Of a stretch of 64,000 nucleotides of DNA, positions 12,002 to 61,916 are shown piece after piece. This DNA is from an uncultured Bacillota bacterium (GTDB lineage: Bacteria > Bacillota_I > Bacilli_A > RFN20 > CAG-826). Where the stretch lies: positions 140 through 64,139 of the forward strand of contig CALEHV010000035.1 in assembly GCA_937876465.1 (NCBI GenBank). Direction: 5' to 3'. Positions within the stretch are counted from its first letter, which is position 1, and every line of letters begins with the position of its first letter. A program made the translations under genes and the position numbers. The notes beneath the pieces are model-generated. The model was not told the DNA's origin. It made no database searches and saw nothing but the letters and a program-made list of their open reading frames with translations.

Positions 12002-13213
12002 GTGTTTTTTAACGTAGGAATCGATGTTAGCAAGTACAAGCATGCAATCGCAATCATCGATGATGAAGGGGAAGTTAGAAAGAAAAGTTTCGATATTTCT
12101 AACACTCGTGAAGGGTTTAATTCTCTCTTAAATGAATTAGGCCTGCTCGGCCCAAAAGAGCAAATAAAAATAGGGATGGAAGCAACAGGGCATTATATGA
12201 CTTGTCTGTCTAAATTCCTGGTAGCAAATGGCTACAAAGTACAAATTTACAATCCGTTTATTGTTGAAAGATTTCGCGAGTCTGAAACAAATAAAGGAAG
12301 TAAAACTGACAAGAAAGATGCTTATCTAATTGCTAGATTTGTGATGACTCACCAATTTTCTGCATCCCCGCAATTATCTTACTACATTGAACAACTTCGT
12401 AAAATGTCTAGAGCAAAGTATTTTTTCTATGCTGACAAAATTCGAGCATATAACCATTTGCAAAGATATCTTGATGAAATATTTCCTGAACTATTACCAT
12501 TTTTAGATAGAAAAAGAGATGGAACCAAAGGTTCACGCGGTAGAAATATTCTTGATTCAAAGACAACAAGATGGCTTCTTTCGAATTATCCATCAGCAAC
12601 AAAAATTGCAAATATGAGAAAAGAAACCGCAGAAAAATTAAAAAGGATGTCGCATGGGAAAATAAGTTATATTCGTTTTGAAGAACTTAAAGACCTTGCT
12701 AAAAATTCGATTGGAATTTCAACAGCTGAAGATGAGCAAATAGTAAAATCTCTGATTATCCAAATAGAGGCTATTGACGAAGAAATTGATGAATTTGAAA
12801 ATCAAATTGATCAAATAATGAATCGAATACTATCACCAATAACTTCTATTCCTGGAATTGGCAATCAATTAGGAGCTATGATTCTAGGAGAAATAGGAGA
12901 CATTAAAAGATTTGACAATCCTGAAAAATTAATTAGATATGCAGGTTTGGATGTCAGAATTTATCAATCGGGAACAATTAACCAGCGAGGAAAAATTGTT
13001 AAAAGAGGATCACCGATTTTGCGTTATGCATTAGCGCTTACAATTCAAAAACTTAGAATTCATTCTCCAGTGTTTTCTGAGTACTACTATTCAAAAATTC
13101 GCGAAGGAAAACATACACAAGTTGCAATTATTGCTACAACAAGAAAGCTAATTCGAGTTATTTGGAAAATGCTTTACGACAATGTAGTTTTTGAAAACTT
13201 GGCTAAGAATTAA
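12002..13213 (+). CDS. IS110-family DEDD transposase/recombinase
   Basis: 403-aa ORF with a GTG start preceded by AGGAGG. The N-terminus VGIDVSKYKH...MEATGHY is RuvC-like DEDD, and the C-terminus SIPGIGNQLGAMILGEIGD is a Transposase_20-like HhH region. Confidence 0.92.
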   Translation: MFFNVGIDVSKYKHAIAIIDDEGEVRKKSFDISNTREGFNSLLNELGLLGPKEQIKIGMEATGHYMTCLSKFLVANGYKVQIYNPFIVERFRESETNKGSKTDKKDAYLIARFVMTHQFSASPQLSYYIEQLRKMSRAKYFFYADKIRAYNHLQRYLDEIFPELLPFLDRKRDGTKGSRGRNILDSKTTRWLLSNYPSATKIANMRKETAEKLKRMSHGKISYIRFEELKDLAKNSIGISTAEDEQIVKSLIIQIEAIDEEIDEFENQIDQIMNRILSPITSIPGIGNQLGAMILGEIGDIKRFDNPEKLIRYAGLDVRIYQSGTINQRGKIVKRGSPILRYALALTIQKLRIHSPVFSEYYYSKIREGKHTQVAIIATTRKLIRVIWKMLYDNVVFENLAKN

Positions 13214-27992: not shown

Positions 27993-30900
27993 TTAATTTT
28001 CTTTTCTTCTTTTATACAAAGTATAAGTAATTCCAATACCCAAGAGTAAACCAGGTAATGCAAGAACAAATATACTTAATGTTTCGTTGGTAATTCCATT
28101 ACTATTGAAACGAGCTGATGGCACAGTATATTGATTTCCGTCTCCATCAACGATGAATGGTGCAAATTGGTCTTCACCATAACGTTGAATAATTGTTTCA
28201 TAACGTCTCATAGCGTCACTAAATTGAAGTTGTTCAACAAAGTAGGTTTTACTACCGGAGTACATATTTTCAAACTCTGTTCTAAGTGTAGGCCAAATTG
28301 TCTTCAAATTATCTATATCTGAATCCATACCTGTAACATCACAATACTTATCAGTTTGACTCATGAAGTAATTGCCCCATGCAGTTGCTTGTTCTTCTGC
28401 TGTATACGTTGTTGGTGTTCCACCTTGACCATATGTAATTCCAATAGCACTAACATAGAATCGTTTTGATTTAGCAGAAGCAGAAATCGAAATGCTTGAT
28501 GTTGTTGCATCAGTAATACTGAAAACCAAATCGCTTGATGTAGCAGGCGCTTGGAGAGATTTGCCATTTACTGTAATTGACGAGCCATCGCTGCCATAAA
28601 CCAAACAAGTTAATGTAATTTTAGTTATAGGTTGAGCTTTATTTAATGTCATAACCCAGGAACCGCCTTTACTACCTGAGCCGAATCTGAATCCACTAGA
28701 TTCAATGCAAACATAGCTTGTAACTGTATTTGATGCAATAGAAAAATCACTCTGACTTGATAAAGTATAGTAGTTGCTTATTGTGTCGCTTTTTAGTTCA
28801 GTTGTTGTTCCACTGGTGTTCATTATAATAGTCGCTGTTTTGCTTTGACTTGAAGAACCAACATTTGTGACTTCAACCTCATAATAAGAAGTTTTAGTTA
28901 TTCCGTTCTCGGTATAAGAAACATCAACTTTTTGCATTCCAAGAATCTTTGTATTTGGATCGTCAATTACCGCTTTATCGGTAACAATCTTGTCATCACC
29001 ACGTTCATATTCCGCAGTCACAACAATGGAACTCTTATCATATGAACTTCCAAAAGGAACTTTATTCAAAGAATAACCAGTAACATAAATTTTTGTTAAA
29101 GCTGGAGCTGCTAAAACCTCAATTGTTGCTACATCAGTAAATCCACCATCTTCAGTGGTAACAGTAATATGAGCAGTACCTGTTGAAACGGCAGTTACTA
29201 ATCCTGTATCACTAACTGTTGCAATTGTTGGTGCATCAGATTCATACGAAACATTTTTGTTAGTTGCATTTCCTGGAGCAACAGTAGCAGTTAATGGAGC
29301 TGTCTCAGAAGTATCTAGGGATAAACTTTTTGGCGAAATTGTTACTCCAGTTACAGAAACTGCTTGTTGAGATTCCCAAACATAAAGTTTAGGCAGCAAC
29401 ATTGTAGTACTTACATTACTTGTGTAATTGCAGAATCTTGGACTTTGCACATTGTACATCCATTTACCATATGAAGAATCTGTGCAAGCAACAGTTGCGA
29501 AATCATTATTATCAATTGAGATTGTCCAAGTAGTAGTTCCACTACCAGTTGTATTGAGTGATCTTGCACTACTAGTACCAATTAATTTATTTGTAGGAGA
29601 AGCGATTTGAAAAATAGTCCAATTATTATTGTCTTTTCCTAAAAGGAACTCGGTTGCTCCAGATGGTACTGTTGTAATTGTTTTATTGTCGCTTGAATAT
29701 ACCAAACCATCTAATTTTGAGAAATATGAAGTATTAAAACCACCCGCTACATAAGTTCCGCTTGTGAACAATATCTTTGATCCTTCTTTAAGTTGAGAAA
29801 CATCTTCTACAAGCTTCCAAGAATAAACACCTGGGTCTGGTGATTCCTTTTCTACGGTAATAGTAATTGAATCTTCGAAACTACCATCGTTAGTTAAAAC
29901 ACCTACTTCAGTAGTGCCTTCACTAACACCATGGACAAGACCTGTATCTTCATCGACAGTACAAATATCTTCATCGTTTGAAATCCAGAATACGCTTTTA
30001 TCTGAAGCAGTACTTGGTATAACTGTAGCGTGCAATTGTAAGTCTTCACCAACATCAATAGTTGTACTATCGCCTTCATCAATTGAAACTCCAGTAACAG
30101 GAACAACGCTAGAATTAATCAATTCACCAATATCTAAACGACCATAACCAAAGGTTTGACTCCAATTTGAATCGTTTAATTTAGTAGCAGAGGCATATAA
30201 ATCTGATTCAAAATCAGTTTGTGTTTTACCTGGGTTTGCTTGTTTCCATAAAGCTGCTGCACCAGCAACAATTGGAGAAGCAAAAGATGTGCCGTGTGTG
30301 TCTTTATATGTGTGGGTTCCGTTTCCGCTACCATCTGCAACACAAACTTGTCCTGGAGCAACAATATCAACATTGTTGATTCCGGCTGTAGTTTCAGAAT
30401 TGTAGTTAGAATAAGAGGCTTTTGTTGTAAAAGCTTGATTGTCTTCCAAAGCACCAACACCAATAACATAATTTGTATGGGCTGGATACGTAGATGCAGA
30501 AGTATTTTTGTTACCAGCAGCAGCACAAATAATAGTTCCTGCAGTATTTAATTTTTTGTAATCCGCAGATAAGTTTGTCCACCCTGAAGACGATGCTTCA
30601 AAGGACATGTTAATAACATCAACGCCTAAAGATAGACATTGTTGCAAAGCAAATTGAACTTCATAGTATCTATATGCAGTTCTAAAAATAATAAGTTCAA
30701 CATTTGGTGCAATTCCAACGCCACCAACTCCATTAATAGAGGCAGCTAAAGTTGCTGCAACGTTTGTTCCATGGTTACTAGTGGATGCAACATCATAGTT
30801 GTGATTTAAACAAGTAGGAAAACTTTTTAAAGTGTAATAAGTAACTTGGTTATCTGTATCATTTCCCTTAATGTACATTGAACTAGAACTGATAATTGAA

Positions 30901-31220
30901 TTTCCGTTTTTATCCTTAAAATCTGGATGATCCATATCAATTCCGTTATCAATAATTGCAACTTTGATGGAATCGCCTTTATAGGTGTCCCAAATGGTTT
31001 CGATATCGCCGAGGCCATTCGGTGACATGTGATAAGATTCTTTTAAAGTAGCATAATTTGTATCAGTTGGAACATAAGAAGGAATAGCATTTTCAACATG
31101 ACCAACATCTTTCATTACAGCGGTGAGAGGTTGAGCATATTCATGATCACCTATGAGCGCGCATAAAGAAAAACTCATCATTGCGATAGGAAATATAACG
31201 AAGAATTTTTTGTTTTTCAT
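27993..31220 (-). CDS. surface-anchored subtilisin-like (S8) serine protease with Big_2 domains and a C-terminal TM anchor
   Basis: Catalytic triad contexts VAIIDNGID, SNHGTNVAAT and HGTSFASPIVAGAAAL. There are at least two Big_2-like repeats. The signal peptide MKNKKFFVIFPIAMMSF starts at the ATG at 31220, with a GGAG upstream. The C-terminus is a TM helix followed by KRRKEN. Confidence 0.85.
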   Translation of the reverse strand: MKNKKFFVIFPIAMMSFSLCALIGDHEYAQPLTAVMKDVGHVENAIPSYVPTDTNYATLKESYHMSPNGLGDIETIWDTYKGDSIKVAIIDNGIDMDHPDFKDKNGNSIISSSSMYIKGNDTDNQVTYYTLKSFPTCLNHNYDVASTSNHGTNVAATLAASINGVGGVGIAPNVELIIFRTAYRYYEVQFALQQCLSLGVDVINMSFEASSSGWTNLSADYKKLNTAGTIICAAAGNKNTSASTYPAHTNYVIGVGALEDNQAFTTKASYSNYNSETTAGINNVDIVAPGQVCVADGSGNGTHTYKDTHGTSFASPIVAGAAALWKQANPGKTQTDFESDLYASATKLNDSNWSQTFGYGRLDIGELINSSVVPVTGVSIDEGDSTTIDVGEDLQLHATVIPSTASDKSVFWISNDEDICTVDEDTGLVHGVSEGTTEVGVLTNDGSFEDSITITVEKESPDPGVYSWKLVEDVSQLKEGSKILFTSGTYVAGGFNTSYFSKLDGLVYSSDNKTITTVPSGATEFLLGKDNNNWTIFQIASPTNKLIGTSSARSLNTTGSGTTTWTISIDNNDFATVACTDSSYGKWMYNVQSPRFCNYTSNVSTTMLLPKLYVWESQQAVSVTGVTISPKSLSLDTSETAPLTATVAPGNATNKNVSYESDAPTIATVSDTGLVTAVSTGTAHITVTTEDGGFTDVATIEVLAAPALTKIYVTGYSLNKVPFGSSYDKSSIVVTAEYERGDDKIVTDKAVIDDPNTKILGMQKVDVSYTENGITKTSYYEVEVTNVGSSSQSKTATIIMNTSGTTTELKSDTISNYYTLSSQSDFSIASNTVTSYVCIESSGFRFGSGSKGGSWVMTLNKAQPITKITLTCLVYGSDGSSITVNGKSLQAPATSSDLVFSITDATTSSISISASAKSKRFYVSAIGITYGQGGTPTTYTAEEQATAWGNYFMSQTDKYCDVTGMDSDIDNLKTIWPTLRTEFENMYSGSKTYFVEQLQFSDAMRRYETIIQRYGEDQFAPFIVDGDGNQYTVPSARFNSNGITNETLSIFVLALPGLLLGIGITYTLYKRRKEN

Positions 31221-31227
31221 AAAACTC

Positions 31228-31395
31228 CTAAATATTGCAGATGACAATAATGCAAGCAATCATAAGCACAGCAATAACTCCACAAACTATCAAAATCCAC
31301 CAGGGGAAATGATAACCTGATTCTCTTTTCTGCTCTTCGGTTAATAAAGAGTCATCAACCTTAAGATCTTTAGTTGGCCTATTTTTCTCTTCCAT
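31228..31395 (-). CDS. possible 55-aa tail-anchored membrane protein (below the size cutoff of the ORF track)
   Basis: An ATG at 31395, 3 nt after the folT stop, encodes MEEKNRPTKDLKVDDSLLTEEQKRESGYHFPWWILIVCGVIAVLMIACIIVICNI. Its TAG stop overlaps the protease SD. No SD of its own was found. Confidence 0.35.
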   Translation of the reverse strand: MEEKNRPTKDLKVDDSLLTEEQKRESGYHFPWWILIVCGVIAVLMIACIIVICNI

Positions 31396-34245: not shown

Positions 34246-34638
34246 TTATTTCTTTGCTATTGCTGCAAAATTTAGACAAGCACTTATAAGATTCAAAAAA
34301 GGCACTAAATCCTTCTCAATACGTTCTAAACTTTTATAAAAATTGTTTTTCACATAATAATCTGCTTTTTCGTAATCAGAAATAACAAGATCTAAGGTAT
34401 CAACAATTTCCTTATTTTTATCAAGAGGTTCGATAATATTTTGTTTAATTAATACTTCTATTAGTTTACTAAAACGTTTTTTATCGAAATTAACATCAAT
34501 CATGTCAGATGATAAGCGCGACCTTTCATCAATAGACAAAATGATACACCTAATAATATTTCTATCAGGCGAATTCTTTTTCGGAATATGTTTTGATTTT
34601 TTTACCGAAAATTTAGAAGTTTTTTTATTTTTATACAT
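34246..34638 (-). CDS. hypothetical protein with a basic N-terminus
   Basis: 130-aa ORF downstream of the LRR lipoprotein gene. I recognise no family and found no SD. Confidence 0.4.
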   Translation of the reverse strand: MYKNKKTSKFSVKKSKHIPKKNSPDRNIIRCIILSIDERSRLSSDMIDVNFDKKRFSKLIEVLIKQNIIEPLDKNKEIVDTLDLVISDYEKADYYVKNNFYKSLERIEKDLVPFLNLISACLNFAAIAKK

Positions 34639-34707: not shown

Positions 34708-37700
34708 TTAAGCTTGATAATTCCATACGACCGGTCTATCACTAGTATTCCAAATTGAACTCCATCCACTAGGTTGAGACGAACTTTCACAAAAAATAGA
34801 AAGAGAATTACAAATACGAAAAGCATCGTCACCAATAAAAATGACTCCTTCAGGAATATATATTGAAGTCAAGGAAGAACAACCAGAAAAAGCACCATGG
34901 CCAATTGAAGTCAAACTTTTTGGAATACTTATTAAAATGAGCGCCGAAGCAGCAAAAGCTTCGTCACCAATAGAAACTACTCCTTCAGGAATATATATTG
35001 AAGTCAAGGAAGAACAACCAGAAAAAGCTCTTGAACCAATCGATATAATTGTATTTGGAATATTAACTGAAATAATTGAATCACAATAGTAAAAGGCGTA
35101 ATCTGCAATAGCTATAACTGACATTCCGTCAATTTGAGAAGGAATATTTATTTCAGTTATGGTATTATCTGCTAAAGACGCGACAACAAGGTTTCCATCT
35201 TTTGTAACCCCATAATTAATTCCATCTTTTGTAAAATGGCTCATACAGTTCCAAACAACTGGTCTCCAACTATTCCAAAATGAACCCCATCCACTTGGTT
35301 TTGATTTGATTTCACAATATATTGTCACTTCACTGTTTGGTGTAATGTATTCCCCGATCGAAGTTACGGTATCTGGGATACTGATTGAAATAAGAGAGAC
35401 GGAATTTTTGAAAGCGTACTCGTTTATTGCAGTGACTGGTTTTCCATTGACATGAGATGGAATATTTATTTCAGTTATGGTGTTATCTGCTAAAGACACG
35501 ACAACAAGATTTCCATCTTTTGTAACCCCATAATTAATTCCATCTTTTATAAAATGGCTCATACAGTTCCAAACAACCGGCCTAAAATCTGTATACCACC
35601 CACTTGGTTTAGACTTACTTTCGCAGATAATATGAAGAAAAGGACAATTATCAAAAACATCAGAACCAATAGAAGTAATAGAAGACGGAATAAAAATTAA
35701 AGTTAAAGATTTCGAATCTTTGAAAGCACCTCCCGCTATGGAAACGACAGGCATTCCGTCAATTTGAGAAGGAATATTTATTTCAGTTAAAGTTTTGTCT
35801 GCCAATGATACAAGTACTATATTTCCATCTTTTGTAACCACATAATTAATTCCATCTTTTGTAAAATGGCTCATACAGTTCCAAACAACCGGAGTAGATA
35901 AAGATTTCCAATTTGTATCCCACCCACCTGGTTTAGACGAACTTTCACAACAAATAGAAAGAGAATTACAAGAAAGAAAAGCATCGTCACCAATAAAAAT
36001 GACACCTTCAGGAATATATATTGAAGTCAAGGAAGAACAATCATAAAAAGCACTATTTCCAATAGATGTGACAGAATTAGGGATATTGATGGAAGTTAAA
36101 GAAGAACAATGATAAAAAGCTTTATCTCCAATAGATGTGACAGAATTAGGGATATTGATGGAAGTTAAAGAAGAACAATGACAAAAAGCACTATTTCCAA
36201 TAGATGTGACAGAATTAGGGATATTGATGGAAGTTAAAGAAGAACAATGATAAAAAGCTTTATCTCCAATAGATGTGACAGAATTAGGGATATTGATGGA
36301 AGTTAAAGAAGAACAATGATAAAAAGCATTCTGCGCTATGGAAACAACAGGCATTCCATCAATTTGAGAAGGAATGTCTATGTCTGCTAAAGTTTTGTCT
36401 ATCAACACCGCAACTACAAGATTTCCATCATTTGTAGCGCCATAATTAATGCCGTTTTTTGTAAAGTAGCCCATACAGTTCCATATTATTTTACCGTTAA
36501 AATGCCAGGTAGTTGGTTTTGATGCTATCTCACAGTAAATAGTAAGAGATGTGCAGCCTTCGAAAACATCTGAACTTATGCTAGAGGTTACACTATTTGG
36601 AATATAAATCGAAGATAAAGAAGAACAATGTTTAAAAGCACTATTTCCAATAGATGTGACAGAATTAGGGATATTGATGGAAACAAGGGAACTGCAACCC
36701 AAAAAAGCCTCACTGCCGATCGAAATAACGGAAGATGGGATTTCAATCGAAACCAATGACGAGCAATTAGAAAAAGTAGCATAGTATACATACTGAATCC
36801 CATAAGGTATATTAATTGAGACAAGGGAAGAACATCTAGAAAAAGCGCCCCAACTTATGAAACTAACGCTGTTAGGAATATTGATGGTGGTAAGGGATAT
36901 ACATTCACAGAAAGTAGATGCTTCTATTTTTGCGATTTTCTCAGGTAGCCTAACCGAAATAAGGGAAGAACACCCATAAAAAGCATCGTCGCCGATTGTA
37001 ACCACACTATCTGGGATTTCAATAGATCTAAGTGATGAACAACAATAAAAAGCATATTGTTGTATTGAAGTAATAGTGTTTTCTATTTTTATTGAAGTAA
37101 GAACATTATCACGCGAGAACGCATGAACACCAATCGAAGCTATTTTTCTACCACTGTAGTATGATGGAATATACGCAAAACAAAAATTATTTCCACTTTT
37201 TTTGTACAAATCATATTCGTTATCAATCAAAGTAAAATCATATTTTCCATCTAAATATTCATCATCATCCCTTAGTTTGTATCGTGCTGTTAATATTTTG
37301 CTAGCTTCGGAATATTCCCAAGAATTTCCTTTGGTAGGAATAACTTTCCCATCAAGGAGCCAACAATCAAAGACATATTCCCAATCTATTTCTTTTTTAG
37401 CTGTTGTAGGAACAGGAAGTTCGTAAGGGCTTTTAAATGTAATCGTCATCAATGTTGTATCACAAGTACCATCACCAGCATCAAAACTATAAACGTTTGA
37501 ATTACTAGACCATTTTGCAGTTAAAGTCAGGTCGTTTGGAATTGTCCATGTTGCTTTATTACTATACTTTACATCATCTTTAAACCATCCCAAAAATGTT
37601 GAATTATATTTCATTGGAATTGGTAACTCATATGCGCAATTGTAGACAACTTTTACGCTTTTTATATCACACTCTCCGCCATTAGCTTTAAGCGTTACAG

Positions 37701-38466
37701 TATATACATTAGCAGACCAATAAGAACTTAAATGAGTATCTCCTTTCTCGCGATATTTACCAGAAAAAGGGAATGGTCTTCCTTCATTATCTATCCAGCA
37801 TGTTAATGTGTAGCCAATTTCTTCTAAATACTGAGGAATGTTGTACTGAGAATTATAAGATACATTTAGTGGTTCTAGAGTTTTTCCAAATATTTGATCT
37901 TCGAAATAGATTTTATACGCTTTTGATGTAAATTTCGCTTTTAGATTAATATCCTCTGTCACTCTATCAGCATAAAATCCATTAAAAACCCACTCTCTTT
38001 CAGGATAGCCTTCAACATACCAGCTTGATATATTGTAGCCTTCAGTTTCACTAGCTGATGGTTTCTCAATTTTGGAATTTGAAGGCACCACTTTAGTTTC
38101 AATTAAATCATCATCACAGTAAAAGTTTACTGTATATGTTGTTGTGTCTTTTACATTTCCTGCATTAACAGTTTCCCCATTTGAAAAAGTAACAATCAAA
38201 TCTCCATTTTCATCAATAAATGTGTTAACGACAGAAACTCCATCTTTCCCATCTTCACCCTGTTCACCTTGTGGGCCAGTATCACCTTGTGGACCAGTAT
38301 CACCTTGTGGGCCTTGTGGGCCGGTATCACCTTGTGGGCCTTGTGGACCAGTATCACCTTTTTCTCCTTGGATACCTTGTGGGCCTTGTAGGCCTGCTTG
38401 ACAACCTACAAGTGTGAAACACGATATGATACTTAAAACCAAAAAACGTATTTGTTTAAATTTCAT
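34708..38466 (-). CDS. giant surface lipoprotein: collagen-like GXY stalk, Listeria-Bacteroides (InlB B-type) repeats, then BspA-type leucine-rich repeats
   Basis: Lipobox FTLVGC, followed directly by 17 GXY triplets. Next come repeats of the YTVNF...GY.F.GW type, then many 23-aa units [23 protein letters not shown]. An in-frame TGA 9 nt upstream fixes the start. Confidence 0.85.
35118..36486 (-). repeat. four dispersed direct repeats of about 140 bp, marking the starts of repeated BspA-like units
   Basis: Near-identical segments lie at about 35118-35262, 35441-35582, 35751-35892 and 36351-36486. Each encodes [45 protein letters not shown]. Confidence 0.85.
36027..36327 (-). repeat. 69-bp in-frame tandem repeat, about 4.3 copies (LRR units)
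   Basis: AATAGATGTGACAGAATTAGGGATATTGATGGAAGTTAAAGAAGAACAATG recurs starting at 36061, 36130, 36199 and 36268. Confidence 0.9.
38239..38394 (-). repeat. collagen-like GXY coding repeat (9/18-nt periodic DNA)
   Basis: Reiterated ccttgtgggcc / agtatcacc units encode [12 protein letters not shown]... Confidence 0.9.
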
Positions 38467-38518
38467 AAATATTCAATAATTTATGTTCGATTAAAATTGA
38501 ACACTTCTCCTTCTAATA

Positions 38519-38549
38519 ATTCTAGAGAGAGAGAGAGAGAGAGAGTCAA
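38519..38549 (-). promoter_or_regulatory. putative promoter of the LRR lipoprotein gene, with the microsatellite as its spacer
   Basis: On the minus strand, TTGACT (38549-38544) and TAGAAT (38524-38519) are separated by a 19-nt spacer made almost entirely of CT repeats. Confidence 0.45.
38524..38545 (-). repeat. (CT)11 dinucleotide microsatellite, read as (AG)11 on the + strand
   Basis: A perfect 22-nt tract, tctAGAGAGAGAGAGAGAGAGAGAGtcaag, lying 58 nt upstream of the lipoprotein ATG. Confidence 0.98.
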
Positions 38550-38794
38550 GCACTTATATAATAAGAGTGCTAATAACTTTCTATGTCAAAATTATTAAAA
38601 ATTAAGAAAATCGTTAAAAGCAGTTTTCTTCAAGATATGTAATTGCTCACAACTTTTTAAACATTTGGTAATTGGTTAAATACAAAATCTATTAAAGTTA
38701 ATAATTAAAATCAATGCATAAAATGAGATAAAAATTTTTAGAATAAGATTTAATTATTGCCGAATACAAACATTAACATGTTGAAGAGTTCGTA

Positions 38795-38896
38795 TTATTG
38801 TAAACAAAAGCCAAATTCTTCGATATCTGCCCTACGTTTAAGCGAAGCTTAAAATCATTTTAAAATTGCGTTGTTCTTTTCAATGTTGTATTTCAT
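38795..38896 (-). pseudogene. possible decayed YafQ/RelE-type toxin remnant
   Basis: An ATG overlaps the antitoxin stop (ATGA). The frame reads MKYNIEKNNAILK*F*ASLKRRADIEEFGFCLQ*, with three in-frame stops and only weak toxin-like N-terminal character. Confidence 0.25.
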
Positions 38897-39165
38897 TTAA
38901 GCAAATCTTCAATCAGTGTATCTACACTATCAAATGTTTCCGATTTGCTACGATTATGCTCCATTTTTTCAACTTCTCTATAATTTCTATTTGGAACTTC
39001 ACGAGTAATTTCAAAAGGAATCCTCTGTTCTCGAACAGATTGCGTTAAAAATAATGAAATAGCCGTAGACAAATCTAACCCAAATTCCCTAAATAGCGCA
39101 ACTGCGTCCTTCTTCAATTCAGAATCAATATTTCTGTGTATAATATATGCACGATAAGCACACAC
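38893..39165 (-). CDS. RelB/DinJ-family type II antitoxin
   Basis: 90-aa ORF with a GTG start. RNIDSELKKDAVALFREFGLDLSTAISLFLTQSVREQRIPFEI is the DinJ ribbon-helix-helix region, and the C-terminus ...FDSVDTLIEDLLK is typical of the family. Confidence 0.8.
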   Translation of the reverse strand: MCAYRAYIIHRNIDSELKKDAVALFREFGLDLSTAISLFLTQSVREQRIPFEITREVPNRNYREVEKMEHNRSKSETFDSVDTLIEDLLK

Positions 39166-41762: not shown

Positions 41763-44480
41763 CTAGTTTTCTTTGCGTTTCTTGATAAATAAGAATGCAC
41801 CAACTGCAGGTATTGCGATCACACTAATGACAACAATTAATTCAGTTATATTTTGCTTTTCTAGCATAGGTGCAATTTGGAACGAGAACGAAGAAACTGG
41901 AATTACTCTTTCGCCAATAAATGCAGGATATCTGTCGGTTCCATATTTATTAACGATGTAGTCATATAATCTTATTGCTTCTGCAACAATTTGGTAGGTT
42001 GATCCACGCGCAGTTACAACTGTTGAAGCGCCTGAACCAAATGCTTCGTATTCCGCATTGATCAATAAGGCTTTGTCTTCATTACCTAAATCAGCAAACG
42101 CTTCAGCCATATCTACCCAAGAAGTTGAATGAACAGGATCTGTTTGTCCAGTTGCATCACATGTGATACTACTTAAGAAATCTTGTGACCATTGGAACAC
42201 TTCTTCTGAAGGATAAGAAGCTTGTGCTTTATAAAGGCTAACTTTGTTATTTGTACCTATTTTGTTGTAACAAGAGAACAATAAACTTGATTTGTTGAAG
42301 AACAATAAATTATGTGTATAGTCTCCTAATGCAGCTGCATCAACTTCTTCATTAGCAAAAGCGATACTAAAGGAACCATTTCCATCTAAAACATCTTTTG
42401 TTCTTAAGTAATTGCTTGAACTACTTGCCGCATAAATGTATCCATCTCTACTACGATCATAGAATGCATATGAACCTTGGGTTGTTCCAATTCTTAATTC
42501 AAATGGATGAATATCTAAATCTGTATCGTATTGAACTGTACCATCTGTATTTTTAACAATTTCAATTGCTTTACGGTTGTTTGATTCTTGTGAGCCTAAT
42601 GCATAGGTTGCAGCATCTTTTTCTCCAACAATGAGAATGTTGTCTCCCACATTAAGTTCTGCTAAGGATTTTACTTTGGTAAATTGTTGTGAATACGGTA
42701 TCGGAGTAATTTGAATTTGAATTGAATCGTAGATATCATCTCCACCATTAGCAGTACATGTAACTGTTGCAGTACCAACTGCTAAGAATTGCATTAATCC
42801 TTCTGCGTCAATTGAAACAAGATCATCTTCATCAACAGAATATGTGACAGACTTATCTGTGGCATTTGAAGGTAAAATTGTTGGCTCTAATTGGAAAGAG
42901 GTACCAACTTTAAATGATTGACCTGCTTCAATATTGAGTGATACCGATTCAACAAGAACAATTGTAGCCGAAACAGTTACATCAAATGTTGCTGTTGCGC
43001 CACATCTATGTGTAACAGTAATTGTTTGTGTTCCTGCTGTGGATAATGTCATTGGAGAATATGTACAACTTGCTGCAACATTTTCCAATTCTTCCGATGC
43101 TTCAGTAACAGCACTAACAACAATACCAGTTGGATCTAACGTTTCATTTAATGAATATTCTACTTTAGAAGGCAATGATTCTACTGCAATCTCTTCAACT
43201 GGATCAGCAGAATATAATTTCATTTTTGCATTATTAGTATTTGTATATGTTCTAAAATCTGGAGCGGTACTATATAAAGATAAATATCTTGTATTGTTAA
43301 CTGAATTTCTCAAGTAGATAAAGCCATCACCAGCGTCTTCTACAATCCAGTTTTGGGTACCATTTTCAAGAGCATTAACACCATCGTTGGAAGTTGTGCA
43401 TCCAAGAACATATGTTTTATCTTCAACAGTTTTTGAAATTGTATAAGTATTTCTTTCAACTCTATCAAAAACCCATCCGGCATCATCTGTATAATCGTTA
43501 ATAAAATTAATTTTTTCGGTTAATTTGTCGGAATCCTCAGTTTTAATATAACCGGATTTTAAAATATAAGAATCACTTGATGAATCTGATGTTAAAAGAT
43601 AAGCCTCACCATCTACAATGCCTCCGATTGGAGAAAATGGATTTACGACAATATCTGAAACTGTATATGGATCGCTTTCAACATCATTATAAGAAGCAGT
43701 AACATCGACTGATGTGGTTCCAAGAGCAGCAACTGCAGGATCAACTGACCAATCTACTGAACTAGTAAGATCTGCAGTAGTTAAATCTGAATAAGTACCA
43801 GTTGCAACTAATCCAGTTGGATCGAATTCTTCACCTTCTTCATAAGTTGTTTTGCCCATATTTCCACTTACTTCAATAGAAGAAAGTGTTTTTGTATTTT
43901 CTGCAATTGTTAATTCGATTTTCTTCCAACCAATTTGATTATTGGTTAAAGTGGTTGAAACTGTAGCGCTTGTTGCGACCGCATTATTTAAAGAAATATC
44001 TCCACTTTCCCAAAGACGATCTGTGAATGTTTTAACATCAATATTTGAAGAGTCGCTTGGTGAAATAGTTAGTTTTTGTTCTTTTTCTGGTTTATCGGTT
44101 TGAGTCCAACCATAAAATGTAACAGCTACTTTACTAATTACATATCCAGTTTCATTTAATTCTATGGACAAATCAGCATTTTTTGTGACTGGCATAGAAG
44201 TGATATTTGAAGAGGATTTATTTGCACCGCTAAATGTAAAAGTAACATCCGGTAAATCGCCATCAATTTCGCTGGATTCAACAACACGTTCATTATATGT
44301 AGTATTCCATTTAGATGCATATGTTTGAAAGTTTTTTTCGAAATCAAAAGTGTACTTTCCTGTATCAACTTCAGCCTTTGCTTCAATTGGTTTTACAGCA
44401 CAATTAATTCCAATTACAGAACCAACGCCCAAAACTAAAGCAGAGGAAGCTAACAAAGCTAAAATCTTAAATTTTTTCAT
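41763..44480 (-). CDS. 905-aa surface protein with Big_2 domains, uncharacterised modules and a C-terminal TM anchor; no catalytic domain recognised
   Basis: Signal peptide MKKFKILALLASSALVLGVG. There is a Big_2-like region around VESVSLNIEAGQSFKVGTSFQLEPTILPSNATDKSVTYSV. The C-terminus is a TM helix followed by KKRKEN. Confidence 0.75.
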   Translation of the reverse strand: MKKFKILALLASSALVLGVGSVIGINCAVKPIEAKAEVDTGKYTFDFEKNFQTYASKWNTTYNERVVESSEIDGDLPDVTFTFSGANKSSSNITSMPVTKNADLSIELNETGYVISKVAVTFYGWTQTDKPEKEQKLTISPSDSSNIDVKTFTDRLWESGDISLNNAVATSATVSTTLTNNQIGWKKIELTIAENTKTLSSIEVSGNMGKTTYEEGEEFDPTGLVATGTYSDLTTADLTSSVDWSVDPAVAALGTTSVDVTASYNDVESDPYTVSDIVVNPFSPIGGIVDGEAYLLTSDSSSDSYILKSGYIKTEDSDKLTEKINFINDYTDDAGWVFDRVERNTYTISKTVEDKTYVLGCTTSNDGVNALENGTQNWIVEDAGDGFIYLRNSVNNTRYLSLYSTAPDFRTYTNTNNAKMKLYSADPVEEIAVESLPSKVEYSLNETLDPTGIVVSAVTEASEELENVAASCTYSPMTLSTAGTQTITVTHRCGATATFDVTVSATIVLVESVSLNIEAGQSFKVGTSFQLEPTILPSNATDKSVTYSVDEDDLVSIDAEGLMQFLAVGTATVTCTANGGDDIYDSIQIQITPIPYSQQFTKVKSLAELNVGDNILIVGEKDAATYALGSQESNNRKAIEIVKNTDGTVQYDTDLDIHPFELRIGTTQGSYAFYDRSRDGYIYAASSSSNYLRTKDVLDGNGSFSIAFANEEVDAAALGDYTHNLLFFNKSSLLFSCYNKIGTNNKVSLYKAQASYPSEEVFQWSQDFLSSITCDATGQTDPVHSTSWVDMAEAFADLGNEDKALLINAEYEAFGSGASTVVTARGSTYQIVAEAIRLYDYIVNKYGTDRYPAFIGERVIPVSSFSFQIAPMLEKQNITELIVVISVIAIPAVGAFLFIKKRKEN

Positions 44481-57781: not shown

Positions 57782-60700
57782 TTAGTATTGATATGTAGAA
57801 TTAATTGCTCCGCCGTATGTTTTAGATAAATCAGACCATTCCGTGAAGTGCGAATAAGTAGACGAAGTGAAGGTTGATTGACTGTCTCGTGTTCCAGCTA
57901 CATAGTAGAATGCTAGTCCGTGTGCATCATGGGCAGCTTCTTGTTGTGAGGAAGAATAAGCAACAAGATTTCCAAATGCAGTCTTAACATTAGAAATGTA
58001 ACTGCCTCCTGGATTAAATGTGCTATTTTTCTCAAGCAATGTTAAGAAGTGCCATACATCAAATGTGCAGAAGTAATTATAATCTGTACCACCAAAATAC
58101 TTCGTTTTTCCAATAAGGTTTGAATTAAATGTAGATTTATTACTTGATGTAATCTTATTCTTAAGTTGAGCAGCTAATTCTTCAAAAGCGGTCTTGTAAG
58201 CAGACATATAATTCAAGTTATAGTATGCCAATGTTTGATCGCAAGGATAGTATTCGCCTTCCCAATAACCTCCTGTTCCATTCACTCCGCCATTATCACT
58301 AATAAATCCATCAACAACGGCTTTTAAAATGGTTTCAGTAGATTTGTTAGCATAAACATCGTCAATCCATGTGTCGTAATCCCATCCCTCTCCAGCTTCA
58401 GATTCTTCAGAACCAACCATATAGTTGAAATATGGAGAGTTGAACTCTGCAACATCTTGCAAGCCCATTAAACATGCGTCATATCCAATCCACTCAAGTT
58501 TTGTAGTTCCAGTTGATTGGAAAGCCCCACTAACAGCATTTACAACTTCGTAATCATATAATGAATCCTGGCTGTAATTTTCATCATAGCAAACGCCTCT
58601 CATTCCGCCACCATGGTTCCAGAGTATAACACCTGTTTTTTCTGCAGGATATTCTGTTAAACCCCATTCTAGGAATGACTGGAATGTTTCAGTTTCACCC
58701 ATAGATGCATTATCAAGTCTTTCATCAAGAACATAATTTTTTGAACTTAGATGGAATCGATTTAATTTATTTAAATAAATCAAAGAAGAGTATGAATCAT
58801 TCCAACTCTTTGCACCACCAGCCTCAATAACAATATTTACATCATTAGGTTGGTTCTTTACGGATTTGATTTCATCAAGATCGCCTGAAGCGAGACCGTT
58901 CTTGCTCTCCAAATCGTTTCCGCTCATATAAATCAAAATAGTATATTTATCTTTTTGCTGTTCAGTAACAGTCACGGAACATGTTGCTGTTTTGTTACCA
59001 TCTTGAGTTGTACAAGTAATTGTTGCAGTTCCAACAGCTTTAGCTGTTACTAAACCCGATGAATCGACTGAAGCAATTGTGGATTTACTTGAAGACCAAG
59101 AAACGTTCTTATTAGAAGCATTAGATGGAGATACTGTTGGGGTTAATTGATATGTTGAACCAATGCCAATAGATGCTGAGGAAGTATTTAATGTAACTCC
59201 TGTAACAGCAATTGTCTTAACTGTAACTGTACATGAAGCAACAGTTGTTGTTGTTTCGCCAGTCTCAACAGTAGCTTTAATTGTTGCTTGTCCAGTTTTA
59301 ACACCTGTAACTACACCATTGTCAACTGTTGCAATTGTTTCGTTTGTGCTTGTCCAAGTAATTCCTCGATTGTAATTAGATGGAGATACTGTAGCTTTAA
59401 GTTCAACAGCATTTCCTAATGCAACCTCTTGTGTAGATGGCAAAGATACGCTTGTTGCATATACAGGTTTTCCACTTGTTCCATAAAGTTCTGGAAGAAG
59501 CATTGATGTAGAAGTGTTTGATGTATATGTTGTGAAACGAGGACTACCTGAATTGTAAAGTATACGTCCATAGCTACTTGTTCCGTTTTGAATTGTTGCA
59601 GAATCACTGCTAATAGAAATATCCCATGTAGTTGTTCCGCTGTTCCAACCTACACTCTTTGCACCAGATGATCCTAATAAATCGCCATTATCATTTTCAA
59701 AAGTCCATGCGCCAGAATTTCCGCCAACAGTGAATATAACAGCACCTTCTCCTGGTGCAACAACATCATCATCAAATTCTGAATCAATAGGATCTAGGAA
59801 TGTGCCATTAACATCTCCTGCAACAACACCTTTAGAAGCACTACCGATTACAACCTTCATACCGGCTTCAATATCATTAGCATTTGTAATTAATTCAAAA
59901 CCTTCTGGTTTAACTGGTTCAGTAACCGTAATTGTACATGTTGCTGTGAAGCTACCATCTGTTGTTGTAACAGTAATAACTGCTGTGCCGGCAGACTTAC
60001 CTGTAACTAAACCATTACTATCAACTGATGCAATAGTTGGTTTATCAGATTGCCAAGCAACTGATTTTGTTGTTGCTGTTGATGGGGTAACAGTTGCAGT
60101 TAATTGAACTGTCTTGCCAACTTCGATTGATGCTGTTGTTTTATCAAGAGTGACATCTTGTACTGGAACAGCGTTAACTGTAATAGCGACCGAACCAGAA
60201 ATTGATGGGTTATCAGTCTTATAAACTTTAGCAGACCAGTTTCCTGCAACACCTAAGATTTGGCTCATGTCATGAGCAACACTGTTTGGATTTAATAAAC
60301 TTGCAGAAAGTCCGTATTCACTAAAGTTAGCATATGGAACGTCTTTTGCTGTTGTACCATCGCTAAGACTTAATGTCGCTTTTAAATTGTTTGTAAATGT
60401 AACTGTTTGAGCAGTTGTATAAGTTGTTGTTGTCATGGAAGCACTAATAGCTGTAACAACTACTGGTGGATTGCCAACAATGATTTGAATATCAACTGGT
60501 AAGAGTGTTGAATATTGAACTCTAACCCAATATGTACCAGCTTCTGGGAAAGGTTTTGTTTTATCAATACCACTTCCACCTTGAGTTTTTGAAACATTAT
60601 ATGTGTATTGAGTTGAAGTTAAAGAAACTTGAGTTCCGTCTTGTTTTTTAGCTTTAACGATTAATCCATTATCTGAAGAATATGTATTTTCAGTTGTATA

Positions 60701-61774
60701 ATCGTTTGCTTTTGTATCAGAAACTGTAATTCCAACAATATCACTTGGTGTGTCATATTCGACATCAGCTAATTTAACTTTATGATAAAGATAAGTAACA
60801 TTGTCTTGTCCTTTGTTCCAAGAGTTCCAAGTTGTCTTACTTGTATTGTAAGAAACGTAGTGTGGATCTGAGTTATTGCTATAAATCTTGTGAGATGAAA
60901 GATCAATATTCCATGTTCTGTTACTAGTTGATCCTTCAGTTGAGAAATATAAGCTTTGATATGAGCCGCCATCATAAAGAGGTTTTGTATCTCCACCTTC
61001 TTTAGTGAATTGGTATGAACCTTTAGAACCGCTTAAAACGAAACCATAACCTGAAACATAATCAAATTGTTTACTAGCAACATTTATAGATGCAGATGCT
61101 AAGTAATAATTTGCGGAAATTGTGTTTGTAGAAACTTTACCGCTTCCGTTATTTACTGTAGCAAATGTATAAACATCGCCAGAGATAAGGTCTTTTTCGT
61201 CTTCAACAAGTTGAAAAACTGTTTTGCCTTCGATTTGGTGTCCGTGAGCAGCTGGGTTGTCAACACATGTGTATTGATATGTAGCTTTCTCGAGGTTAAC
61301 ACTACCGCCGGTAGCAGATAATTCGACGTAATAAGGTAATGAAGGTAAGTTATATACTTCTGTGCTTATTGCGTTGCTGTAACCAGACCATGTTGCGCCA
61401 TCGTATGAAGTTCTAAATCTTAAAGATCCGGAACCAGAAAAATTAAACTGCATGTAATCGATTGATGTAATTTGTACAGTATTAACAATTTTTCCACCAT
61501 TTGCGATTGTCGCATGGCCGGTAGAACTAACGCTACAATTTGTGTAATCGAATCCGATTTGCCAGTTACCTGAACTTGTTGTAATGTCCTTATGAGTTTC
61601 AGATGATCCTAGCTTGTTACTTGAGTCTAAAACAACTGTGTAATCAGAATCGCCAAACGCACCCGCAGCGTTTATTTTTGAGGAGGAATTTGTAAAAGCT
61701 AAAATGCTAACCATTCCTAGGATAGCAAGTGAGGAGGCGAAAGCAAGTCCGCCTAGCTTGTTCTTCTTTTCCAT
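57782..61774 (-). CDS. giant secreted or surface clostripain-like (C11) cysteine protease with Big_2 domains and uncharacterised modules
   Basis: The ATG at 61774 has GGAG 7 nt upstream and encodes the signal peptide MEKKNKLGGLAFASSLAILGMVSILAF. There are three Big_2-like repeats. The C-terminal roughly 390 aa carry YTILIYMSGNDLE, ILWNHGGG (His) and IGYDACLMG (Cys). Confidence 0.85.
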   Translation of the reverse strand: MEKKNKLGGLAFASSLAILGMVSILAFTNSSSKINAAGAFGDSDYTVVLDSSNKLGSSETHKDITTSSGNWQIGFDYTNCSVSSTGHATIANGGKIVNTVQITSIDYMQFNFSGSGSLRFRTSYDGATWSGYSNAISTEVYNLPSLPYYVELSATGGSVNLEKATYQYTCVDNPAAHGHQIEGKTVFQLVEDEKDLISGDVYTFATVNNGSGKVSTNTISANYYLASASINVASKQFDYVSGYGFVLSGSKGSYQFTKEGGDTKPLYDGGSYQSLYFSTEGSTSNRTWNIDLSSHKIYSNNSDPHYVSYNTSKTTWNSWNKGQDNVTYLYHKVKLADVEYDTPSDIVGITVSDTKANDYTTENTYSSDNGLIVKAKKQDGTQVSLTSTQYTYNVSKTQGGSGIDKTKPFPEAGTYWVRVQYSTLLPVDIQIIVGNPPVVVTAISASMTTTTYTTAQTVTFTNNLKATLSLSDGTTAKDVPYANFSEYGLSASLLNPNSVAHDMSQILGVAGNWSAKVYKTDNPSISGSVAITVNAVPVQDVTLDKTTASIEVGKTVQLTATVTPSTATTKSVAWQSDKPTIASVDSNGLVTGKSAGTAVITVTTTDGSFTATCTITVTEPVKPEGFELITNANDIEAGMKVVIGSASKGVVAGDVNGTFLDPIDSEFDDDVVAPGEGAVIFTVGGNSGAWTFENDNGDLLGSSGAKSVGWNSGTTTWDISISSDSATIQNGTSSYGRILYNSGSPRFTTYTSNTSTSMLLPELYGTSGKPVYATSVSLPSTQEVALGNAVELKATVSPSNYNRGITWTSTNETIATVDNGVVTGVKTGQATIKATVETGETTTTVASCTVTVKTIAVTGVTLNTSSASIGIGSTYQLTPTVSPSNASNKNVSWSSSKSTIASVDSSGLVTAKAVGTATITCTTQDGNKTATCSVTVTEQQKDKYTILIYMSGNDLESKNGLASGDLDEIKSVKNQPNDVNIVIEAGGAKSWNDSYSSLIYLNKLNRFHLSSKNYVLDERLDNASMGETETFQSFLEWGLTEYPAEKTGVILWNHGGGMRGVCYDENYSQDSLYDYEVVNAVSGAFQSTGTTKLEWIGYDACLMGLQDVAEFNSPYFNYMVGSEESEAGEGWDYDTWIDDVYANKSTETILKAVVDGFISDNGGVNGTGGYWEGEYYPCDQTLAYYNLNYMSAYKTAFEELAAQLKNKITSSNKSTFNSNLIGKTKYFGGTDYNYFCTFDVWHFLTLLEKNSTFNPGGSYISNVKTAFGNLVAYSSSQQEAAHDAHGLAFYYVAGTRDSQSTFTSSTYSHFTEWSDLSKTYGGAINSTYQY

Positions 61775-61888
61775 AAGAATTCTCCAATAAACCGTATTTT
61801 TGTACGTATGTATATATATTATATATATGCGTATATTTTGTAAATCTTTTTGTATTAAAGCAATGTTTCTTTTCCGATTTAATCGGAA

Positions 61889-61916
61889 CAAAAAACCTGC
61901 AGGAGTCCCTACAGGT
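61889..61916 (-). terminator. terminator after the Ser-rich lipoprotein gene
   Basis: The minus strand reads ACCTGTAGG gact CCTGCAGGT (one mismatch) followed by TTTTTTG. Confidence 0.7.

What the first reader, a model, noticed from the sequence alone, without database searches (positions are those of the whole stretch)
38519..38549. A (CT)11 microsatellite forms the promoter spacer of the giant LRR lipoprotein gene and may act as a slipped-strand phase switch
The minus strand reads cTTGACT(CT)10AGAATTATT. The -35 TTGACT (38549-38544) and a -10 TAGAAT (38524-38519) are separated by 19 nt made almost entirely of the repeat (tract 38524-38545).

Losing one CT unit gives the optimal 17-nt spacer, and gaining one gives 21. 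This is the only long perfect dinucleotide tract I saw in the 64 kb, and it sits 58 nt upstream of a surface-exposed lipoprotein gene.

Spacer-length switching by repeats is established for Mycoplasma mycoides Vmm ((TA)n), Haemophilus hifA/B ((TA)n) and Neisseria porA/opc. A CT-repeat version controlling a collagen/BspA chimera would be new.
Basis: partly seen in the sequence, partly recalled or inferred. Interest (0 to 1): 0.75.

Follow-up and report, generated by a model that had tools for sequence, protein, structure and literature searches.

The report
Repeat-spaced promoter with heat-shock operator
A run of eleven CT units lies between the two halves of the predicted promoter of a large surface lipoprotein gene, next to a heat-shock-type operator, and related gut bacteria carry the same scaffold with other repeats of differing length, so it is probably a mutational on/off switch for a surface protein.

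Summary
On the minus strand, (CT)11 occupies 38545-38524. It is flanked by TTGACT (38549-38544) and TAGAAT (38524-38519), giving a 19-nt spacer 57 nt upstream of a 1252-aa lipoprotein gene (collagen, Flg_new and BspA-type LRR domains). It is the only dinucleotide tract of 5 or more units in the window. No tract of 6 or more units occurs in 1.29 Mb from 80 related genomes.

1. The -35 is fused to a CIRCE-type inverted repeat, the HrcA operator: TTAGCACTC-N9-AAGTGCTTG (38573-38547).

2. The scaffold (CIRCE-like repeat ending in TTG, then a simple repeat, then a -10) recurs in four other assemblies of related uncultured gut Bacilli, with different repeats:
- L004: (CTT)8
- L082: (CTT)9
- L090: (CTT)9
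- L089: (AAG)5

L004 and L082 have locally identical flanks but differ by one unit. Each module type has exactly one unit number that gives a 17-nt spacer. All five observed states are one or two units away from it.

The best reading is a slipped-strand, spacer-length switch on a possibly HrcA-gated promoter. It is a new variant of a known kind. Length heterogeneity at this locus, the transcription start and HrcA binding remain untested.

The parts
38565..38573 (-). Left arm of CIRCE-like inverted repeat, TTAGCACTC
   Evidence: single match in the window, 0 mismatches to TTAGCACTC-N9-RAGTGCT. With up to 2 mismatches allowed, shuffles give a mean of 0.08 matches. Invariant in 4 of 5 modules. 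Consensus taken from PMC3842655.
38547..38555 (-). Right arm of CIRCE-like repeat, AAGTGCTTG. Its last three bases, TTG, are the first three of the -35.
   Evidence..AGTGCTTG is invariant in all five modules. True CIRCE elements of relatives end ..AGTGCTAA, for example upstream of clpB in L063.
38544..38549 (-). Predicted -35 hexamer TTGACT
38524..38545 (-). (CT)11 microsatellite that fills the 19-nt spacer
38519..38524 (-). Predicted -10 hexamer TAGAAT. The same hexamer follows the repeat in L004, L082 and L090.
38504..38514 (-). Purine-rich, SD-like AGAAGGAGAAG at the inferred 5' end of the transcript (start inferred near 38512). It lies about 40 nt from the ATG, too far to serve as its ribosome-binding site.
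   Evidence: The transcription start is inferred, not mapped.
34708..38466 (-). Gene for a 1252-aa lipoprotein: lipobox LVGC, collagen GXY repeats, Flg_new and six BspA-type LRR_5 stretches, with internal 69-bp repeats
38584..38589 (-). Alternative upstream -35-like hexamer TTGACA, 10 nt before the CIRCE left arm. It has no good -10 at 17 nt (TCTTAT); TATTAT lies at 20 nt.
38893..39165 (-). RelB/DinJ antitoxin gene, followed at about 38760-38897 by a decayed toxin remnant. Marks the upstream edge of the segment absent from relatives.
   Evidence: The toxin remnant is read by eye from the sequence.
34246..34638 (-). 130-aa ORF of unknown function, downstream of the lipoprotein gene and inside the same lineage-specific segment

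Best explanation
Window 38573-38519 (minus strand) is a composite promoter for the LRR/collagen lipoprotein gene. A CIRCE-type inverted repeat (the operator of the heat-shock repressor HrcA) is fused through its last three bases (TTG) to the -35 hexamer TTGACT. The spacer down to the -10 TAGAAT consists of (CT)11.

Proposed mechanism: slipped-strand mispairing adds or removes CT units and moves the spacer in 2-nt steps. Ten units give 17 nt (strong, ON). Eleven units, the sequenced state, give 19 nt (weak). Nine or twelve units give 15 or 21 nt (OFF). The surface lipoprotein is therefore switched stochastically and heritably. Occupancy of the operator by HrcA would add stress or temperature control on top.

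Shown here: the anatomy, its non-random nature, conservation of the scaffold, and differences in repeat number and repeat unit between related genomes.

Inferred, not shown: that these hexamers are the promoter in use, the transcription start, the ON/OFF effect, and HrcA binding.
For: - The tract is unique in 64 kb, and no dinucleotide tract of >=6 units occurs in 1.29 Mb of related DNA.
- The flanking hexamers are as good as observed at only 0.014% of random positions.
- With n=10 the site is the best sigma-70-like site in the whole window: 13.9 bits against a maximum of 13.2.
- The same scaffold occurs in four other assemblies: L004 (CTT)8, L082 (CTT)9, L090 (CTT)9 and L089 (AAG)5. The blocks ATT.GCACTC and .AGTGCTTG are invariant.
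- L004 and L082 are 91-97% identical in shared genes. Locally they are identical around the module apart from one CTT unit.
- In L090 the flanks have diverged but the repeat is still perfect.
- Each module type has a single unit number that gives TTGnnn-17-(-10): n=10, n=7 and n=6.
- The repeat units include both pyrimidine-rich and purine-rich forms on the coding strand. This argues for a length effect at the DNA level rather than an RNA sequence effect.
- All known downstream genes encode surface proteins.
- No ORF crosses the tract, and no inverted repeats flank it.
- Promoter-spacer repeats are an established switch type: porA, hifA/B and M. hyorhinis vlp (PMC3899988); Vmm (PMC2628566).
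Against: - No read-level or strain-level variation could be obtained for this exact locus. No orthologue of the gene exists in any searched collection.
- All five observed modules have non-optimal spacers (19, 20, 23, 23, 14). This fits 'mostly OFF' populations, but it also fits a wrong -35 assignment or decayed promoters.
- The -35 of the CTT modules (TTGCTT) matches the consensus at only 3 of 6 positions.
- Sigma-70-like matches are no more frequent in this region than in shuffled sequence.
- The weight matrix I used is an approximation written from memory.
- A perfect TTGACA lies 40 nt upstream (38589-38584). If it is the promoter in use, the tract would be in the 5' UTR.
- The CIRCE-like repeat has 3 mismatches to the canonical consensus (2 to the clade's own clpB CIRCE). 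This is at the limit reported as functional in Mollicutes (PMC5138195).
Confidence: 0.6

Rival explanations
1. The repeat sets the distance and helical phase between the CIRCE-like operator (or a neighbouring palindrome) and the -10 or transcription start. Under this reading it tunes repression or induction rather than -35/-10 spacing. A variant: transcription starts upstream (TTGACA at 38589) and the repeat acts within the 5' UTR.
For: - All observed spacers are non-optimal for a -35/-10 promoter: 19, 20, 23, 23 and 14.
- The operator is the most conserved part of the module.
- A -35-like hexamer lies 10 nt upstream of the left arm in the window (TTGACA) and in L089 (TTTACA).
- Intergenic repeats that act through 5' UTR structure have been described in Haemophilus (PMC12721329 abstract).
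Against: - No acceptable -10 lies 17 nt after the upstream hexamer in L004 or L089.
- 5' UTR folds with or without the tract are no more stable than shuffles, z = -0.05 and +0.62.
- The repeat unit changes from CT/CTT to AAG, so no common RNA sequence function is likely.
- The TAA-to-TTG change at the end of the right arm is specific to repeat-bearing modules, as expected if it creates a -35.
Confidence: 0.17
2. The tract is a real and mutable microsatellite with no regulatory consequence. It would be a neutral expansion in a tolerant part of the intergenic region, or the remains of a promoter that no longer works. The gene would then be transcribed from elsewhere or by read-through from relB.
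For: - No intrinsic terminator is predicted between relB and the gene.
- All modules are at OFF lengths.
- The gene lies in a lineage-specific segment next to a decayed toxin-antitoxin pair.
Against: - The scaffold is conserved between genomes that are only 67-71% identical in neighbouring housekeeping genes.
- The only long repeats in 1.35 Mb of this clade's DNA all sit at the same position of the same scaffold.
- The repeat stays perfect where its flanks have diverged.
- The hexamer quality and register are unlikely by chance.
Confidence: 0.15
3. Assembly or sequencing artefact: the tract, or its length, is not real.
For: Low-complexity repeats are error-prone, and one related contig (L087) begins exactly where such a repeat would end.
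Against: - A 22-nt tract is well within read length.
- Four independent assemblies from other studies carry analogous perfect repeats at the same position of the scaffold.
Confidence: 0.03

Closest known systems
Haemophilus influenzae hifA/hifB (TA)n and Mycoplasma mycoides Vmm (TA)n promoter-spacer switches
   Same: A dinucleotide repeat lies between -35 and -10. One unit number gives optimal spacing. The regulated gene encodes a surface structure or lipoprotein. Switching is transcriptional, by slippage (PMC3899988; PMC2628566).
   Different: - The unit here is CT (CTT or AAG in sister modules), not TA.
- The promoter is unidirectional.
- An operator-type inverted repeat is fused to the -35.
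- The host is an uncultured gut member of Bacilli.
- Switching has not been demonstrated.
Mycoplasma hyorhinis vlp poly(A), Neisseria porA poly(G) and opc poly(C) spacer tracts
   Same: The promoter spacer is made of a hypermutable tract. M. hyorhinis, like the clade here, has a family of variable surface proteins (PMC3899988). That the vlp genes share a conserved 5' region is from my own knowledge. Here the conserved 5' UTR and signal peptide with divergent ectodomains are shown.
   Different: Those tracts are homopolymers moving in 1-nt steps. Here the steps are 2 or 3 nt, so only every second or third state can be ON.
CIRCE/HrcA class I heat-shock operators (groESL, dnaK, clpB, lon)
   Same: An inverted repeat TTAGCACTC-N9-(G/A)AGTGCT at a promoter (consensus from PMC3842655). 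Relatives in this clade use a true CIRCE upstream of clpB.
   Different: - The outer two bases of the right arm are TG, not AA.
- The downstream gene is a surface protein, not a chaperone or protease.
- The element is combined with a simple repeat.
- Binding by HrcA is untested.
Helicobacter pylori CT-repeat switches (oipA, sabA, babA)
   Same: The same repeat unit (CT), in adhesin or outer-membrane protein genes, with slippage as the mechanism.
   Different: Those repeats lie in the 5' coding region and act by frameshift. Here no ORF crosses the tract.

Membership tests
Promoter-spacer simple-repeat phase switches | A perfect simple repeat of hypermutable length lies between the -35 and -10 hexamers | tested here: met
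   The hexamers are predicted, not mapped.
Promoter-spacer simple-repeat phase switches | One unit number gives near-optimal 17-nt spacing and neighbouring numbers do not | tested here: met
   n=10 gives 17 nt and 13.9 bits. n=11 gives 10.5 bits, n=9 gives 9.1 bits, and n=12 gives no site. Sister modules behave the same way.
Promoter-spacer simple-repeat phase switches | Unit number varies between cells or strains while the flanks stay constant | tested here: inconclusive
   Not obtainable for this locus. In the homologous module, L004 has (CTT)8 and L082 has (CTT)9 with identical local flanks, and L090 has (CTT)9.
Promoter-spacer simple-repeat phase switches | Transcription or protein level changes with unit number, reversibly and at high frequency | not testable with these tools
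   Needs reads, reporter fusions or cultures.
Promoter-spacer simple-repeat phase switches | The regulated product is surface-exposed | tested here: met
   Lipobox, collagen and LRR_5 domains. Sister modules precede proteins with a signal peptide and membrane anchor.
CIRCE/HrcA regulon | Inverted repeat TTAGCACTC-N9-GAGTGCTAA with few mismatches (no more than 2 reported as functional in Mollicutes) | tested here: inconclusive
   Left arm 9/9, right arm 6/9 against the canonical consensus, or 7/9 against the clade's clpB CIRCE (PMC3842655; PMC5138195).
CIRCE/HrcA regulon | The operator overlaps the RNA polymerase binding site | tested here: met
   The right arm shares TTG with the predicted -35. 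The position is predicted only.
CIRCE/HrcA regulon | The downstream gene is a chaperone or protease | tested here: not met
   The downstream gene is an LRR lipoprotein. In L004, L082 and L090 it is a variable surface protein.
CIRCE/HrcA regulon | hrcA is present in the genome and HrcA binds the site, with heat induction | not testable with these tools
   I did not see hrcA among the window genes I annotated, and not all ORFs were annotated. No binding or expression data are available.
Coding-region CT-repeat frameshift switches (H. pylori type) | The repeat lies inside the ORF, so that unit changes shift the reading frame | tested here: not met
   All three minus-strand frames have stop codons between the tract and the ATG, and an in-frame stop lies 3 codons upstream of the ATG.
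Invertible promoters (invertons) | The promoter is flanked by inverted repeats for a site-specific recombinase | tested here: not met
   Only weak AT-rich pairs were found around 38.4-38.8 kb.

The most novel reading that the evidence does not exclude
An uncultured gut lineage of Bacilli may use a portable two-input promoter cassette. The cassette is a heat-shock (HrcA/CIRCE) operator fused to a -35, followed by an interchangeable simple repeat (CT, CTT or AAG) as the spacer, and it sits in front of different variable surface-protein genes. Each gene would then be expressed only in cells that are both in the ON repeat register and under stress or temperature de-repression. That would be a stochastic switch gated by an environmental signal.
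Probability: 0.33. Interest if true: 0.78.

Novelty: new variant of a known kind. Interest (0 to 1): 0.62.

Why it matters
Repeat-driven switching of surface proteins is known mainly from a few cultured pathogens such as Neisseria, Haemophilus, Helicobacter and Mycoplasma.

Here the same logic appears in uncultured commensals of herbivore guts. The scaffold is recognisable by sequence alone: TTAGCACTC-N9-RAGTGCTTG followed by a simple repeat. It could therefore be searched across metagenomes to list candidate switchable surface genes and to read their ON/OFF state directly from reads.

The fusion to a heat-shock operator, if functional, would link stochastic antigen switching to a stress or temperature signal. 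I found no report of that combination in the papers I searched.

Tried and rejected
- **Exact-sequence look-ups.** Five window proteins (LRR protein, SmpB with two starts, Zn-ribbon protein, Mur ligase) returned nothing on record.
- **Collection scans for the locus.** A DNA pattern with a variable gap found nothing in metagenome contigs. The N-terminal 430 aa found no relative in genome contigs or metagenome contigs.
- **Protein homology.** The first search was swamped by collagen repeats. Without the collagen part, only distant hits of at most about 30% identity over most of the query appeared. No orthologue was found, so the tract cannot be compared at this locus directly.
- **Translational switch.** Rejected: every frame has stop codons between tract and ATG.
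- **Invertible promoter.** Rejected.
- **RNA structure or anti-SD role of the CU tract.** Folds are no better than shuffles.
- **Rfam.** Nothing in this region of the window and nothing in L004 or L089.
- **Paralogous upstream regions within the window.** None.
- **Viral contig scan for the scaffold.** One hit (L081) without a repeat and of different composition, judged unrelated.
- **Other genes of the same surface-protein family.** L085, L086 and L088 have no module. L089 has none upstream of its own gene.

Full report
**1. The observation**

On the minus strand the window reads ...attagcactcttattatataagtgcTTGACTCTCTCTCTCTCTCTCTCTCTAGAATtattagaaggagaagtg.... Tandem Repeats Finder reports a perfect 11-unit dinucleotide array at 38524-38545.
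- TTGACT at 38549-38544
- TAGAAT at 38524-38519
- a 19-nt spacer between them

The ATG of the downstream ORF is at 38466. A regex scan shows this is the only dinucleotide tract of five or more units in the 64 kb. The only other simple repeats found are two A8 runs and one (GTT)4.

In 1.29 Mb taken from 80 related genomes there is no dinucleotide tract of six or more units, and the longest has five.

The ORF (38466-34708, 1252 aa) starts with a lipoprotein signal ending in the lipobox LVGC. It then carries collagen GXY repeats, a Flg_new domain and six BspA-type LRR_5 stretches.

**2. Organism and genomic setting**

The window is about 32% G+C and reads well in the standard code. It carries mnmG, an IS110 transposase, an FMN riboswitch and four tRNAs.

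SmpB, 4.7 kb downstream of the tract, is at most about 80% identical to proteins of uncultured 'Bacilli bacterium' genomes; the titles of the nearest relatives name horse faeces, and further relatives (62-67% identity) include rumen genomes. More distant matches are Erysipelotrichaceae and Coprobacillaceae.

In the five nearest relatives the gene order is cation-efflux gene, Zn-ribbon membrane protein gene, then smpB. At most one unrelated gene lies between the last two: a 135-aa ORF in L004 and an IS605 OrfB in L082.

The window has about 5.3 kb extra at that site:
- a RelB/DinJ antitoxin gene (TIGR02384, E = 4e-19)
- a decayed toxin remnant
- the repeat-bearing promoter
- the lipoprotein gene
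- a 130-aa ORF of unknown function

. The lipoprotein gene is therefore lineage-specific. No orthologue was found in the protein database or in the genome and metagenome collections.

**3. Whether the tract is a promoter spacer**

The built-in promoter scan allows only 16-18 nt spacers, so it does not list this site. It also finds no more promoter-like sites in the region than in shuffles, so a hexamer match alone proves little.

I scored the region with an approximate sigma-70 weight matrix written from memory. The results:
- As sequenced (n=11), the site scores 10.5 bits.
- With n=10 it scores 13.9 bits, above the best site in any 300-nt segment of the whole window (13.2).
- With n=9 it scores 9.1 bits.
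- With n=12 no site spans the tract.

If a CT tract were placed at every position of the window in turn, only 0.014% of positions give flanking hexamers this good in a register that can reach 17 nt.

No ORF crosses the tract, and an in-frame stop lies three codons before the ATG. No recombinase-type inverted repeats flank it. Folds of the leader, with or without the tract, are no more stable than shuffles.

**4.

Immediately upstream, and overlapping the -35, lies TTAGCACTC-TTATTATAT-AAGTGCTTG (38573-38547). It is the only match in the window to TTAGCACTC-N9-RAGTGCT.

The published CIRCE consensus, the operator of the heat-shock repressor HrcA, is TTAGCACTC-N9-GAGTGCTAA (PMC3842655). Relatives in this clade have a true CIRCE, TTAGCACTC-TCACTTGAC-AAGTGCTAA, in front of clpB.

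The window element differs from that clade version only in its last two bases, TG instead of AA. This change creates the TTG of the -35. A study of Mollicutes reported that functional CIRCE elements carry no more than two mutations (PMC5138195), so this one is at the limit.

**5. The scaffold recurs with different repeats**

A scan of the fetched loci for long simple repeats found (CTT)8 in L004, a horse-faeces genome. Its context is ATTAGCACTCtaacatcgaAAGTGCTTG(CTT)8AGAATTTATT. This is the same scaffold as in the window, although neighbouring housekeeping genes are only 67-71% identical in DNA.

Following homologues of the protein encoded downstream in L004 gave three more instances:

| Locus | Source | Module | Repeat |
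|---|---|---|---|
| L082 | ENA ERZ27247126 | locally identical to L004 | (CTT)9 |
| L090 | NCBI GCA_024408015.1 | diverged flanks: TTGGCACTC-tccacttga-AAGTGCTTG ... AGAATTATAGCG | perfect (CTT)9 |
| L089 | ENA ERZ28633530 | TTAGCACTC-gcgcgtata-GAGTGCTTG-T ... CTATTATTAAT | (AAG)5 |

L082 and L004 are 91-97% identical in shared genes.

In the five-way alignment, the arms of the inverted repeat and the terminal TTG are invariant. The loop, the repeat unit and the repeat number all vary.

In about 1.35 Mb of DNA from this clade, every long di- or trinucleotide repeat sits at this one position of this one scaffold.

The genes downstream in L004, L082 and L090 belong to a family of surface proteins with a conserved 5' UTR, signal peptide and C-terminal membrane anchor. 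Their ectodomains diverge sharply. The window's 905-aa protein (41763-44480) belongs to this family through its C-terminus.

**6. Register and state**

For each module type the weight matrix gives one sharp optimum, where TTGnnn lies 17 nt from a -10:

| Module type | Optimal n | Promoter at optimum | Score |
|---|---|---|---|
| CT | 10 | TTGACT-17-TAGAAT | 13.9 bits |
| CTT | 7 | TTGCTT-17-TAGAAT | 10.6 bits |
| AAG | 6 | TTGTAA-17-TATTAT | 9.6 bits |

The observed states are +1, +1, +2, +2 and -1 units from the optimum. Two readings are possible:
- The assemblies report the majority allele of populations in which each such gene is mostly OFF. This is common for multi-gene variable surface systems.
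- The -35 assignment is wrong and the repeat acts differently. This is my main reservation.

Three observations favour the spacer model:
- The TAA-to-TTG change is specific to the repeat-bearing modules.
- TAGAAT is conserved directly after the repeat in four modules.
- The repeat unit is interchangeable, and purine-rich in one case, which argues for a length effect at the DNA level.

**7. Mechanism proposed**

Slippage in the repeat changes the spacer in steps of one unit. Only one register lets RNA polymerase contact both hexamers. The result would be heritable, reversible ON/OFF or graded expression of a surface lipoprotein.

Because the operator overlaps the -35, a bound repressor (HrcA, if it recognises the TTG-ending arm) would block the promoter except under stress or a temperature rise.

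- Shown: anatomy, statistics, conservation, and differences in unit number and unit type between genomes.
- Inferred: promoter usage, the start near 38512, switching frequency, the effect on expression, and HrcA binding.

**8. Comparison with known systems**

The closest known systems are the (TA)n spacers of H. influenzae hifA/B and M. mycoides Vmm, and the homopolymer spacers of N. meningitidis porA and M. hyorhinis vlp (PMC3899988; PMC2628566).

In the papers I could search, CT repeats in phase variation are coding-region frameshift switches of H. pylori. AG repeats occur in a Mycoplasma mod gene (PMC3498834 abstract).

I found no report of a CT, CTT or AAG promoter spacer, nor of a CIRCE element combined with a simple repeat or placed before a surface-protein gene. 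These searches cover open-access text only.

**9. Verdict**

I rate it a new variant of a known kind: a repeat-spaced promoter cassette with an attached heat-shock-type operator, in uncultured gut Bacilli.

- Confidence in the spacer-switch mechanism: 0.6.
- Interest: 0.62.

Noticed in passing
window 38760-39165 (-): A RelB/DinJ antitoxin gene (38893-39165; TIGR02384, E = 4e-19) is followed by what looks like a decayed YafQ/RelE-type toxin gene. That remnant starts MKYNIEKNNAILK, then a stop codon, with further fragments in other frames. Together with the lipoprotein gene and a 130-aa ORF it forms a segment of about 5.3 kb absent from the nearest relatives.
   Followed up: partly
L004:3646-3703, L082:5765-5822, L090:1790-1845: The long 5' UTR after the CTT modules contains a strong hairpin with a conserved loop, GTTAGCCAG. 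Three base pairs change on both sides between L004 and L090 and stay paired. A conserved motif GTCGATGCATAACA follows it and is also present in L087. There is no Rfam match. The window's short leader lacks both features.
   Followed up: partly
L004:3564-3579, L090:1710-1729, L089:3325-3349; window 38576-38600 (-): An AT-rich palindrome lies directly upstream of the CIRCE-like repeat in every module. The sequences are TTACTATATATAGTAA, TTACTATTTATAAATAGTAA and TACATTACTTTacaAAGTAATGTA. The window has an imperfect version, AATAATTTTgacatagAAAGTTATT. The half-sites TTACT/AGTAA recur. It could be an insulating hairpin or a second binding site.
   Followed up: no
window 38504-38514 (-): A strong SD-like purine run, AGAAGGAGAAG, sits at the inferred 5' end of the transcript. 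It is about 40 nt from an ATG that has no SD of its own. No usable start codon follows it, since GTG lies only 2 nt away. From my own knowledge it resembles 5'-terminal 'STAB-SD' mRNA stabilisers of Bacillus. Untested.
   Followed up: partly
window 34819-35062 and 36023-36328: The lipoprotein gene has internal tandem repeats: a 69-bp period with 4.4 copies at 93% identity, and a 135-bp period with 1.8 copies. They encode LRR modules. Copy-number change here could vary the size of the protein, independently of the promoter repeat.
   Followed up: no
L087:1-60: A related contig (ENA ERZ28653446) begins exactly with TTAGAAACC, 232 nt upstream of a family gene that carries the same UTR motif. That is where a repeat-plus-TAGAA junction would lie. 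This could be an assembly break caused by a heterogeneous repeat.
   Followed up: no
window 41763-44480 (-), 57782-61891 (-), 27993-31259 (-): Other large surface or secreted proteins lie nearby: a 905-aa Big_2/Big_3 protein that shares the C-terminal anchor ...KKRKEN with the variable family seen in relatives, a 1369-aa Big_2 plus clostripain protein, and a 1088-aa subtilisin-like protease. None has a simple repeat or a CIRCE-like element upstream.
   Followed up: partly
window 12002-13213 (+); 652-765 (-); L082:10509-11906: The window carries an IS110-family transposase gene (NF033542, E = 2e-70) and an FMN riboswitch. In L082 an IS605 OrfB/Cas12f-like gene sits in the same Zn-ribbon-to-smpB gap that holds the lipoprotein segment in the window. 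That gap may be an insertion hot spot.
   Followed up: no
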